A stretch of DNA of 43,848 nt from Candidatus Heimdallarchaeota archaeon (GTDB taxonomy: Archaea; Asgardarchaeota; Heimdallarchaeia; Heimdallarchaeales; Heimdallarchaeaceae), in the NCBI GenBank assembly GCA_016840095.1, contig JAEOSZ010000034.1, forward strand, positions 1 to 43,848. Direction: 5' to 3'. The notes under the pieces are model-generated. The model was not told where the DNA came from. It did no database searches and worked only from the letters and a program-made list of their open reading frames with translations. The translations under genes were made by a program, and so were the position numbers. This document shows, one piece after another, positions 141 to 3,008 of the stretch. Every line of letters begins with the position of its first letter. The stretch's first letter is position 1.

Positions 141-283
141 AAAAATTCATTTTTATTTTTTGTCGGCATTCTTTTTCATTTTCATGTGTCAAAGCCTCAC
201 AATCTCCAAAATCGGGATTCATGGCCTTTTTGTATAAATATTTATAGCTCAAAACCGTCGTTTTAGTTTAAGGAGTGTTTAAA

Positions 284-1204
284 ATGGAAGAAGAATTTAA
301 AGATGAAATTCCAGAAGAAACCGAAGATGAAATTACTGAAGAAGAACTCGAAGAAGAGCTCACAGAAGAAGAAAAAGAAGAAGTAGAAGATGAACTTGAA
401 GAGCTTGAAAAGGAAGATTATGGACTTCCAGATGATGTTGAAGAGGAACTTGAAGAAGAACTTGAAGAAATAAAAGAAGAGCTTGAAGAAGAGCTTGAAG
501 AAGAGCTTGAAGAAAAGGAAGACGATGCTGAAGATTATTTTGATACACTTAAACAAATTTCTACTGATAAAGATGACATTGAAGAGATAGAAGAAGAAGC
601 AGCTGAAGAACTAATTGAAGAAGCTGTTGAAGATGTAGTTGAAGACTTAGTTGAAGAGATGGGAGAAGAAGTTGCTGAAGACGATCTTGAAGATGTTGTT
701 GAGGAAGTTACAGAAGATGTGCTAGATGAACCGGAAGAGGAGATCATACAGGAGGTTGAAGAAATCGAAGAAGACGTCGAAGAAGTTGTTGCTGAACATG
801 TATACAAACCTACACCAGTTGATGATGTGATTCCTGATGAACTTGAGAAAAGTGGCGGTGATATCCAGATTATTTTGAAAGATGTTGATGGAGCTTTGAT
901 TCCATATGGTTACGATCTAATCAAAGGTAAAATTGCTATACAACATGATGAAGCAATGAAGGTTAAGCTTGCCTTCTCCTGGTTTTACAAGCAAAACAAG
1001 AACGTTGAAGAGATATTTGGTGCTACAAGACTAAACATTGATTTGATTAATGAAATTCTCATAAACCCGTTCTACTTTGGTAAAGTTTATTTCCAAGGAG
1101 CTCTAGTTAAGGGAAACTTTGAACCAATTTTAACAGAAAGATATTGCAATTTAAACAATATAAATACTGAAGAAATTGAAGAGAAATATCTATCTACAAA
1201 ATAA
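284..1204 (+). CDS. Hyperacidic low-complexity protein with a C-terminal Recombinase (PF07508-like) domain
   Basis: GGAG at 272-275 favours ATG 284 over GTG 275; ~175 aa D/E-rich N-terminus; C-terminal PYGY...EA..V...F...IL.NPFY.G...G.FEPIL pattern. Confidence 0.75.
   Translation: MEEEFKDEIPEETEDEITEEELEEELTEEEKEEVEDELEELEKEDYGLPDDVEEELEEELEEIKEELEEELEEELEEKEDDAEDYFDTLKQISTDKDDIEEIEEEAAEELIEEAVEDVVEDLVEEMGEEVAEDDLEDVVEEVTEDVLDEPEEEIIQEVEEIEEDVEEVVAEHVYKPTPVDDVIPDELEKSGGDIQIILKDVDGALIPYGYDLIKGKIAIQHDEAMKVKLAFSWFYKQNKNVEEIFGATRLNIDLINEILINPFYFGKVYFQGALVKGNFEPILTERYCNLNNINTEEIEEKYLSTK
476..511 (+). repeat. Coding tandem repeat GAAGAGCTTGAA x3 (EELE units), with degenerate copies at about 340-365 and 440-469
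   Basis: Read directly from the sequence. Confidence 0.9.
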
Positions 1205-1243
1205 TTTAACAAACCTATTGGAAGACTTTCTTCCAGTTATTTT

Positions 1244-2053
1244 TTACTTTTCTAACCCATAAGCTTGTTCAATTAATTCAGCTAGTCTCGCTACAAATCT
1301 AGTAGCGGGACCACCATCAACAATATTGTGGTCAATTTGGATAGTAAGGTTCAAAAACTCGTGTTCTACCATTTTACCCGCAGATATTACTGGTTTGTTT
1401 TTTATTCCACCTATAGCAATATTCATAGTATTACTAGGAAAAGGAATACCCCATCCAGCTATGTTTTTTCCAAACATTCCTAATGCAGTGACACCAATTG
1501 TTCCAGCATTTTCTAAAAAGAATTTAGTATTTGTCAGTTTTCTTTTAACAACAATCTTCCTAGCGAACTTAGGAATAAGTGAATAGATTTTCATGAAGAA
1601 TTTTGGGGTTCCTTCAACTAATTGATTTCCCTCTTCCACTTCTATTTCTTGAGCTTCCCTTATTTCATTAGTGATTTCTTGTACAGTTTTTGTATTGGCA
1701 AATTTAATGAGATAATTAATAGGTACTTTCTTTCCAGATCGGGTCGTACGCTCAACCATTGTTCTAACATGAGCATTATCAAAGATTATCAGTTTGTTTT
1801 TTTTGGTCCTAAATGCATGAACTTCTTTGTGTTCACTTACTGCTTGGGCAATACATTTTATTATCCAACCTGTAAATGATAATCTGCTTCCAGTTTGTTT
1901 TTCATATTGTTTGATCCTTTTTCTGGCTTTATCTACATCTAGTTCGACTAAACCAACCATTGATGTTCGTTTAGTAGTTATCTCATAGACCTCTGTTAAT
2001 GCTTGCCGAATCTTTGAAAACTCTTTTAGTTCATAATTGCCAAATTCCTTCAT
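1244..2053 (-). CDS. Stand-alone 2-oxoacid dehydrogenase E2 acyltransferase catalytic domain protein (CAT-like fold)
   Basis: LSFTGWIIKCIAQAVSEHKEVHA, GTIGVTALG and the DHNIVDGG (HxxxDG) catalytic motif; no lipoyl domain. Confidence 0.85.
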   Translation of the reverse strand: MKEFGNYELKEFSKIRQALTEVYEITTKRTSMVGLVELDVDKARKRIKQYEKQTGSRLSFTGWIIKCIAQAVSEHKEVHAFRTKKNKLIIFDNAHVRTMVERTTRSGKKVPINYLIKFANTKTVQEITNEIREAQEIEVEEGNQLVEGTPKFFMKIYSLIPKFARKIVVKRKLTNTKFFLENAGTIGVTALGMFGKNIAGWGIPFPSNTMNIAIGGIKNKPVISAGKMVEHEFLNLTIQIDHNIVDGGPATRFVARLAELIEQAYGLEK

Positions 2054-2666: not shown

Positions 2667-3008
2667 TCAACTTACTCCTTCTGCAAGAAGCTCTCCTATT
2701 GTATCTGCTGTCATGCTAAAAAAAGAAACGAGATCTTCTCTAGAGTGTAAGAGATCATATAGGTTCTTCATAGGTAAGTCTCGTCCATAGTCATCTACAA
2801 AAACAATTTCATATCCCAACCCTTTACCAAGGTTGCTTTGTTCCTTTAACCACTCTCTTTGTTCCTCAAAGAAGTTCTGCAGGAAATCCTTGACATTAGT
2901 GATGTTGCTCAATTTATATCTAGTTAATTCCAGTTTCTTTTCCTTATCTTCTGCATAGATTTTGAATACCATTTTCCAAGTCAAATCAAACACCCAAATG
3001 AGTTTCAT
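2667..3008 (-). CDS. Hypothetical protein, possibly beta-grasp fold
   Basis: 113-aa ORF filling the gap between neighbours; no firm family match. Confidence 0.6.
   Translation of the reverse strand: MKLIWVFDLTWKMVFKIYAEDKEKKLELTRYKLSNITNVKDFLQNFFEEQREWLKEQSNLGKGLGYEIVFVDDYGRDLPMKNLYDLLHSREDLVSFFSMTADTIGELLAEGVS

What the first reader, a model, noticed from the sequence alone, without database searches (positions are those of the whole stretch)
284..1204. Hyperacidic protein fused to an orphan serine-recombinase DNA-binding domain
Seen: the first ~175 aa are more than half Asp/Glu by eye (EELE repeats). The last ~100 aa read IPYGYDLIKGKIAIQHDEAMKVKLAF...INEILINPFYFGKV..QGALVKGNFEPIL. Knowledge: PYGY / EA..V..IF / IL.NP.Y.G / G.HEPI is the signature of the Recombinase domain (PF07508) of large serine integrases, which normally follows a catalytic resolvase domain. 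Here there is no catalytic domain, no zinc ribbon/coiled coil and no mobile element nearby, and the putative recognition helix is acidic (IDLINEIL). Inference: a domesticated integrase domain joined to a polyanionic DNA-mimic or histone-chaperone-like tail, possibly a chromatin factor or an integrase inhibitor.
Basis: partly seen in the sequence, partly recalled or inferred. Interest (0 to 1): 0.72.

Follow-up and report, generated by a model that had tools for sequence, protein, structure and literature searches.

The report
Acidic dimer from integrase DNA-binding domain
One genus of Asgard archaea keeps a gene that joins the DNA-reading domain of a phage-type integrase, apparently turned into a pairing module, to a very long negatively charged arm, so it probably acts as a DNA-like decoy or chaperone for DNA-binding proteins and not as an enzyme.

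Summary
Confirmed. Window 284-1204 encodes a 306-aa protein: an arm that is 56% Asp/Glu (net -90, the most acidic stretch in the genome) plus a compact serine-integrase recombinase domain (profile vs LI integrase E=5e-9; Foldseek E=7e-5; Z 9.3). Catalytic, zinc-ribbon and coiled-coil parts are missing in all orthologues read. It is a vertically inherited gene under purifying selection in one Heimdallarchaeaceae genus (18 of 24 other genomes; not found in other genera among 400 phylum genomes), with a conserved promoter. The scan saw this family before (e1-925866).
New here: (1) a family-specific strand replacing helix alphaE makes a predicted homodimer (ipSAE 0.87, best control 0.00); (2) the recognition helix and minor-groove linker are acidic family-wide, unlike 137 of 139 other such domains; (3) the arm grew inside a short, basic, catalysis-free sister protein, so it did not directly replace a catalytic domain.
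Best reading: a dimeric polyanion that binds basic DNA-binding proteins (0.45); rival: acidic-tailed regulator (0.25). No partner is shown. In passing: the family mostly lacks XerA (2/30) but carries two conserved mini serine recombinases (28/30).

The parts
221..247 (+). Conserved promoter block (TATA-like core; holds the palindrome TATAAATATTTATA at 234-247)
   Evidence: Same 27-nt motif at the same distance from the start in 14 of 14 main-clade orthologues despite different upstream genes; single strong hit in the genome (39.8 bits, next 16.9, shuffles up to 20.5); the motif found a contig-cut orthologue in G018
270..275 (+). Shine-Dalgarno AAGGAG
   Evidence: Conserved in orthologues; AGGAG peaks at -15 genome-wide
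284..1204 (+). Gene, 306 aa, net charge -97
284..847 (+). Polyanionic arm, residues 1-188: 54-56% D/E, hydrophobic residue every fourth position, 12-nt DNA periodicity, variable length, low-confidence helices
857..886 (+). Family-specific hydrophobic strand (residues 192-201) in place of helix alphaE; core of the predicted dimer interface
902..1132 (+). Compact recombinase domain core (residues 207-283): hairpin, three-helix HTH, second hairpin
1037..1060 (+). Helix alphaH equivalent (recognition helix, residues 252-259), acidic across the family
   Evidence: PMC3783163 for its role in LI integrase
1136..1198 (+). Two conserved C-terminal helices (residues 285-305) where integrases continue into the zinc ribbon
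1217..1237 (+). Terminator-like hairpin with T run, between this gene and the convergent gene at 1244-2053
   Evidence: 2 found, 1.0 expected by chance, so weak alone; similar hairpins or T runs follow orthologues

Best explanation
A host-encoded, non-catalytic, dimeric polyanion. SHOWN: the C-terminal module is a serine-integrase recombinase domain without catalytic, zinc or coiled-coil parts; the gene is vertically kept under purifying selection; helix alphaE and the basic minor-groove linker are replaced by a hydrophobic strand followed by acidic residues; the recognition helix is acidic. PREDICTED: two copies pair through that strand and the second hairpin. INFERRED: the domain has largely stopped reading DNA and now serves as the dimer core that holds two arms of about -90 each. 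INFERRED, weakest step: the arms act as a nucleic-acid decoy or chaperone, binding basic DNA- or RNA-binding proteins of the cell (for example the alpha3-truncated histone or DNA-binding regulators) and buffering or stripping their non-specific binding, in the manner of nucleoplasmin, NAP1 or the acidic tail of the RNA polymerase delta subunit.
For: Domain identity. Conservation: 18/24 genus genomes match; dN/dS 0.09-0.47 for the domain and 0.10-0.36 for alignable arm; 12 of the 18 acidic loci read sit in the Elp3-fibrillarin-Nop5 block. Charge: recognition helix net -1.1 vs +1.0 in the short sister proteins and +1.6 to +2.5 in other classes; only 2 of 139 other domains are at -1 or lower; core +0.3 vs +9.0 in the sister clade. 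The base-reading Asn of LI integrase (PMC3783163) aligns to D253 or N256, acidic in 83% and 94% of the family. Dimer: ipSAE 0.87, best control 0.00, runs agree in 100% of contacts, pLDDT at least 93; the mark is reached by 20 of 30 solved pairs and 1 of 23 single chains; in the monomer model the same strand is unpaired and low-confidence. Arm length varies widely but its composition stays 54-67% D/E, as expected if charge, not sequence, is selected.
Against: No partner was identified or tested. Seven basic positions (K214, K216, K226, K228, K239, R249, K267) are invariant or nearly so, which could be a retained or new nucleic-acid surface. A conserved palindrome in its own promoter fits a dimeric DNA binder. 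The gene is not found outside one genus, including a closed genome of a sister genus, so the job is accessory. The dimer is a model. The acidic sequences are close kin, so the charge shift is one event, not 18.
Confidence: 0.45

Rival explanations
1. A dimeric DNA-binding regulator or nucleoid protein whose acidic arm autoinhibits, speeds target search or recruits partners, as D/E repeats do in HMGB1; it may bind the palindrome in its own promoter.
For: Intact HTH fold; invariant lysines; two-fold dimer model and conserved, genome-unique promoter palindrome; recombinase domains are used without catalysis in HTH-RD-RD-wHTH, zinc-finger-RD and solo proteins; mechanism precedent PMC10250230.
Against: The module is not basic (residues 191-306 net -3) against an arm of -94; recognition helix, alphaG and linker are acidic; the palindrome overlaps the TATA position and is imperfect in half of the orthologues.
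Confidence: 0.25
2. A dedicated regulator or inhibitor of serine recombinases: either of the two chromosomal mini recombinases of this family or of incoming integrases.
For: The genome encodes two catalytic resolvase+compact-RD proteins, present in 28/30 family genomes, while XerA is found in 2/30; the same domain type is shared (E=7.8e-6); earlier scan notes describe headless RD proteins beside XerA in DPANN (unchecked).
Against: The recombinases occur in all five genera, the acidic protein in one; the genes are unlinked; the tree does not join them; their upstream motifs differ; no acidic form in viral contigs.
Confidence: 0.12
3. A cation-binding, condensate-forming or spacer protein in which the domain is only an anchor and the arm works like other acidic V/E repeats of this genome.
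For: Another protein (C32:12889-14193) has a similar periodic acidic repeat on an unrelated domain; arm length is free to vary.
Against: No signal peptide or membrane anchor seen; no metal or stress genes nearby; it does not explain the conserved lysines.
Confidence: 0.14
4. A decaying integrase remnant, or an assembly or annotation artefact.
For: The single sequence falls under the Pfam cut-off; the domain evolves faster than its housekeeping neighbours (51-76% vs 69-92% identity).
Against: Intact frame in the orthologues read, dN/dS well below 1, conserved promoter and ribosome site, same architecture in independent assemblies.
Confidence: 0.02

Closest known systems
Recombinase domain (RD, Pfam PF07508) of large serine recombinases: Listeria LI/A118 integrase (4kis, 6dnw), SPbeta SprA (9dxd), Bxb1 (9iu2), phiC31
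   Same: Fold and signature motifs; HTH core alphaF-alphaH with two hairpins
   Different: No catalytic domain, alphaE, zinc ribbon or coiled coil; shorter HTH; acidic recognition helix; new N-terminal strand and C-terminal helices; host gene
Short catalysis-free RD proteins of the same genus (L022, L020/L041, P0012, P0013; 148-178 aa)
   Same: Sister clade (99/99 support); same strand pattern and C-terminal helices; N-terminal charged helix retained in two acidic members
   Different: Basic core (+9), no acidic arm, patchy (2 of 25 genus genomes), other loci
Nucleoplasmin/NPM1 and NAP1 histone chaperones; Firmicutes RNA polymerase delta subunit; HMGB1 D/E tail (from own knowledge, except HMGB1: PMC10250230)
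   Same: Folded, often oligomeric core with long polyanionic arms
   Different: No sequence or fold relation; the arm here has i,i+4 hydrophobic periodicity; partner unknown
DNA-mimic proteins such as T7 Ocr and ArdA (own knowledge)
   Same: Strongly acidic, dimeric (predicted)
   Different: Those display carboxylates on a rigid fold and are carried by mobile elements; here the charge is on a variable-length, low-confidence arm of a host gene

Membership tests
Large serine recombinase / integrase | N-terminal catalytic resolvase domain (PF00239, YxRxS) | tested here: not met
   No Pfam hit or motif in this protein or in any acidic orthologue; longer-length search returned only acidic forms (weak for absence)
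Large serine recombinase / integrase | Recombinase domain | tested here: met
Large serine recombinase / integrase | Zinc ribbon and coiled coil after the RD | tested here: not met
   Protein ends 23 residues after EPIL; no CxxC
Large serine recombinase / integrase | Location in a mobile element with att sites | tested here: not met
   Housekeeping neighbourhood, vertical synteny; acidic form not found in viral contigs; contig edge limits the upstream view
PF07508 recombinase domain | Score over the curated cut-off | tested here: inconclusive
   This copy 13.7 bits vs 21.1; sister proteins pass (21.5-29.5 bits); 18/20 members hit
PF07508 recombinase domain | HTH subdomain alphaF-alphaG-alphaH with beta hairpins | tested here: met
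   Model pLDDT 87; Z 8.8-9.3 to LSR structures
PF07508 recombinase domain | alphaE and minor-groove linker; polar or basic recognition helix (PMC3783163) | tested here: not met
   Replaced by a strand and acidic linker; alphaH net -1.1
PF07508 recombinase domain | Binds DNA | not testable with these tools
   Needs EMSA
Nucleoplasmin/NAP1-type histone chaperone | Oligomeric core with long acidic tracts | tested here: met
   Arm 56% D/E; homodimer predicted, not shown
Nucleoplasmin/NAP1-type histone chaperone | Nucleoplasmin or NAP fold | tested here: not met
   The folded part is positively identified as an RD
Nucleoplasmin/NAP1-type histone chaperone | Binds histones and promotes their deposition | not testable with these tools
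   Canonical histone not found in own genome (89% complete), 3/31 in family; alpha3-truncated histone present
DNA-mimic protein (Ocr/ArdA type) | Rigid surface with phosphate-like carboxylate spacing that occupies a DNA-binding site | tested here: inconclusive
   Full-length model pLDDT 44; target unknown
D/E-tail autoinhibited DNA-binding protein (HMGB1 type) | Basic DNA-binding domain balanced by an acidic tail | tested here: not met
   Domain net -3, arm -94

The most novel reading that the evidence does not exclude
An Asgard lineage independently built a nucleoplasmin-like chaperone or DNA mimic from an integrase DNA-binding domain, by turning the domain into a strand-paired dimer core and growing polyanionic arms. 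It acts on the alpha3-truncated histones or on the serine-recombinase pair that appears to stand in for XerA in this family.
Probability: 0.2. Interest if true: 0.8.

Novelty: new variant of a known kind. Interest (0 to 1): 0.52.

Why it matters
It is a traceable case of a mobile-element DNA-binding domain being recruited and then charge-reversed: basic sister, intermediate and derived forms all survive in one genus, so the switch from DNA reader to polyanionic scaffold can be tested directly. If it chaperones the non-nucleosomal histones, it would be an acidic-arm chromatin chaperone in Heimdallarchaeia, convergent with eukaryotic ones. Its restriction to one genus makes it unlikely to be ancestral to any eukaryotic protein. 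The side result, two highly conserved serine recombinases where XerA is missing, may matter more than the gene itself.

Tried and rejected
Truncated integrase: rejected. Halophilic acidity: rejected, proteome median best window is 18% D/E. Asgard-wide or eukaryote-related gene: not found in other genera among 83 class and 400 phylum genomes, nor at the Elp3 locus of three sister genera. Direct descent from the genome's own mini recombinases: not supported, the tree is unresolved at that depth with 90 columns. Regulon box: the promoter motif has no second site above shuffles. Dominant-negative partner of the basic sister protein: sister not found in this genome and in most others. Full-length fold prediction failed (pLDDT 44). 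Homology of the arm to the C32 acidic protein: score 268 vs 171 for shuffles, but shuffling destroys the shared periodicity, so not counted. ESM Atlas gave only recombinase-domain clusters. Literature searches found no description of this architecture; the library is incomplete. The one complex job went to the homodimer; histone and recombinase pairings were not modelled. LI residue numbering in the alignment rests partly on my memory of the A118 sequence; both possible registers give an acidic residue.

Full report
OBSERVATION. The ORF runs 284-1204 (+) and gives 306 aa from an ATG behind AAGGAG. Residues 1-175 are 56% Asp/Glu with net charge -90, and the protein has the most acidic 100-residue window among 3151 ORFs of the genome (60, next 49, median 18), so this is not general proteome acidity. 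The arm has a hydrophobic residue every fourth position (autocorrelation 0.33 at lag 4) and a 12-nt DNA period; it is predicted as broken, low-confidence helices. The last 116 residues are a recombinase domain. Alone they score under the Pfam cut-off, but the family profile hits LI/A118 integrase at E=5e-9 and SPbeta integrase at 5e-4, 18 of 20 members hit PF07508, and the model (pLDDT 87) finds only large serine recombinases at the top by Foldseek and VIA-align (Z 9.3, 9.3, 8.8; first unrelated 5.2). There is no resolvase motif and no CxxC.

DISTRIBUTION. Relatives are labelled Heimdallarchaeota; two of them, C4.bin.14 and C4.bin.22, are Heimdallarchaeaceae (PMC11193907). The domain is found in 18 of 24 other genomes of the genus, including all three that are at least 90% complete. 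One of these holds only a short form; another genome was added by finding the promoter motif in front of a contig-cut acidic start. In at least two negatives the Elp3 anchor gene lies at a contig end, so some absences may be assembly gaps. It was not found in the four sister genera, including two closed genomes, nor in other genera among 400 phylum genomes. Orthologues are about 250-330 aa, always acidic arm plus domain. Twelve of the 18 acidic loci read lie upstream of the Elp3-HTH-fibrillarin-Nop5 block, and one subclade has moved. dN/dS is 0.09-0.47 in the domain and 0.10-0.36 in the alignable arm (arm alignments are gap-prone). A 27-nt promoter block is kept at a fixed distance in 14 of 14 main-clade genes and is unique in the genome. 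The window holds housekeeping genes and no element among the ORFs scanned. This is a domesticated gene, not a remnant.

ORIGIN. A search of 1.84 billion representatives shows that compact recombinase domains are often used without catalysis: HTH-RD-RD-wHTH proteins, zinc-finger-RD and solo RD proteins. The nearest relatives are short (148-178 aa), basic proteins of the same genus; acidic and short forms make one clade (99/99) and are sisters (90 columns, deeper forks unresolved, tandem and solo rows subsampled). Two acidic members (L039, L040) still begin with the 37-residue charged helix of the short proteins (scores 92-102, best shuffle 60-65). So the arm grew as a linker expansion inside an already headless protein, and the first helix was later lost or eroded. 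The donor integrase cannot be named.

WHAT CHANGED IN THE DOMAIN. In LI integrase the RD contacts DNA through alphaE and its linker in the minor groove and through alphaH (Tyr207, Asn208) in the major groove (PMC3783163). Here alphaE is gone and a conserved hydrophobic strand followed by D200, D202 and a family-acidic position 204 stands in its place. alphaH has net -1.1 in the family against +1.0 in the short sisters and +1.6 to +2.5 in all other classes; 2 of 139 other domains are as acidic. The core is +0.3 against +9.0 in the sister clade. These 18 sequences are kin, so this is one fixed change. Seven basic residues remain invariant or nearly so. Two copies of the module fold as a dimer: ipSAE 0.87 in three runs, best control 0.00, 100% contact agreement, pLDDT at least 93; that mark is reached by 20 of 30 solved pairs and 1 of 23 single chains. 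The interface is the new strand pairing with itself and with the second hairpin, elements that do not form the dimer in solved integrases (own knowledge), so recall from a known complex is unlikely. It remains a model.

MECHANISM. Most likely (0.45) the domain is now a dimer core carrying two arms, about -194 in total, which act as a nucleic-acid decoy or chaperone for basic proteins. Domain identity, loss of catalysis, selection and charge reversal are shown; the dimer is predicted; loss of DNA binding and the client are inferred. Canonical histones were not found in this genome and pass the cut-off in 3 of 31 family genomes; short histones ending right after the RxTxxxxD motif occur in several, and a fragment lies at C10:15446-15535, in line with a report of alpha3-truncated histones in a related lineage (10.64898/2026.07.02.735847). 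These are the likeliest chromatin client. The main rival (0.25) is a dimeric regulator with a D/E tail (PMC10250230) binding the promoter palindrome; against it, the domain is not basic. A recombinase regulator (0.12) is possible because the family carries two conserved catalytic mini recombinases (28/30 genomes, 73-98% identity for one orthologue set, 0/52 outside) and mostly lacks XerA (2/30 vs 14/16 in sister families), but the distributions differ and the genes are unlinked. A cation-binding or spacer role (0.14) cannot be excluded.

COMPARISON AND VERDICT. It is not a large serine recombinase: catalytic domain, zinc ribbon, coiled coil and element context all fail. It carries a true but remodelled PF07508 domain. 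It works, if the inference holds, like nucleoplasmin, NAP1 or RNA polymerase delta, with no homology to them. I found no paper on this architecture. The scan noted the same family on other genomes, with function left open; the dimer, the charge reversal against a basic sister clade, the route of origin and the promoter are added here. New variant of a known kind, genus-restricted, function unproven: interest 0.52.

Noticed in passing
G000 C31:9183-9929 (L002, L088) and C163:109632-110318 (L086): Two catalytic mini serine recombinases (resolvase + compact RD, about 245 aa) are found in 28/30 Heimdallarchaeaceae genomes, the C31 type at 73-98% identity, and in 0/52 other class genomes, while a XerA orthologue is found in 2/30 against 14/16 in sister families; one closed genome has no tyrosine recombinase hit. 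Candidate serine replacement of Xer/dif. Family f7 also misses the XerA query but has other tyrosine recombinases.
   Followed up: partly
L086 and L088-L107, just upstream of the recombinase starts: A GACCTT/CACCTT motif is conserved right before the start codon of both recombinase types; in L086 it forms the dyad AAGGTCGCGACCTT. Candidate recombination or autoregulatory site.
   Followed up: partly
P0015-P0023, P0025-P0027 and others (L071, L114-L116): About 30 diverse proteins of 350-570 aa with HTH + two or three tandem recombinase domains + winged helix and no catalytic domain; one sits near a tyrosine integrase and a helicase/methylase cluster.
   Followed up: partly
L022:1288-1821, L041:7797-8306, L072, L073: Short basic RD-only sister proteins; L041 follows Trm56 and DUF2110 in an operon; L022 and L073 are divergent from a 2-oxoacid-dehydrogenase-like gene, a family that also flanks the window gene.
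   Followed up: partly
G000 C10:15446-15535; L077-L084: alpha3-truncated (face-to-face type) histones appear to be the common histone of this family; canonical histones pass the Pfam cut-off in only 3 of 31 genomes.
   Followed up: partly
G000 C32:12889-14193: 435-aa protein with an unrelated N-terminal domain, a Pro/Glu linker and a V/E periodic acidic tail (net -96) much like the arm described here.
   Followed up: no
window 1244-2053 (-): Stand-alone 2-oxoacid dehydrogenase acyltransferase-like catalytic domain (PF00198) without lipoyl domain, present at this spot in only some relatives.
   Followed up: no
window 2667-3008 (-): 113-aa protein without a known family, conserved at 80-86% identity next to S30e and Elp3 in part of the genus.
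   Followed up: no
G017 C121 and C141 (L036, L037): Two acidic copies, each before the same downstream genes; duplication or strain mixture in the bin.
   Followed up: no
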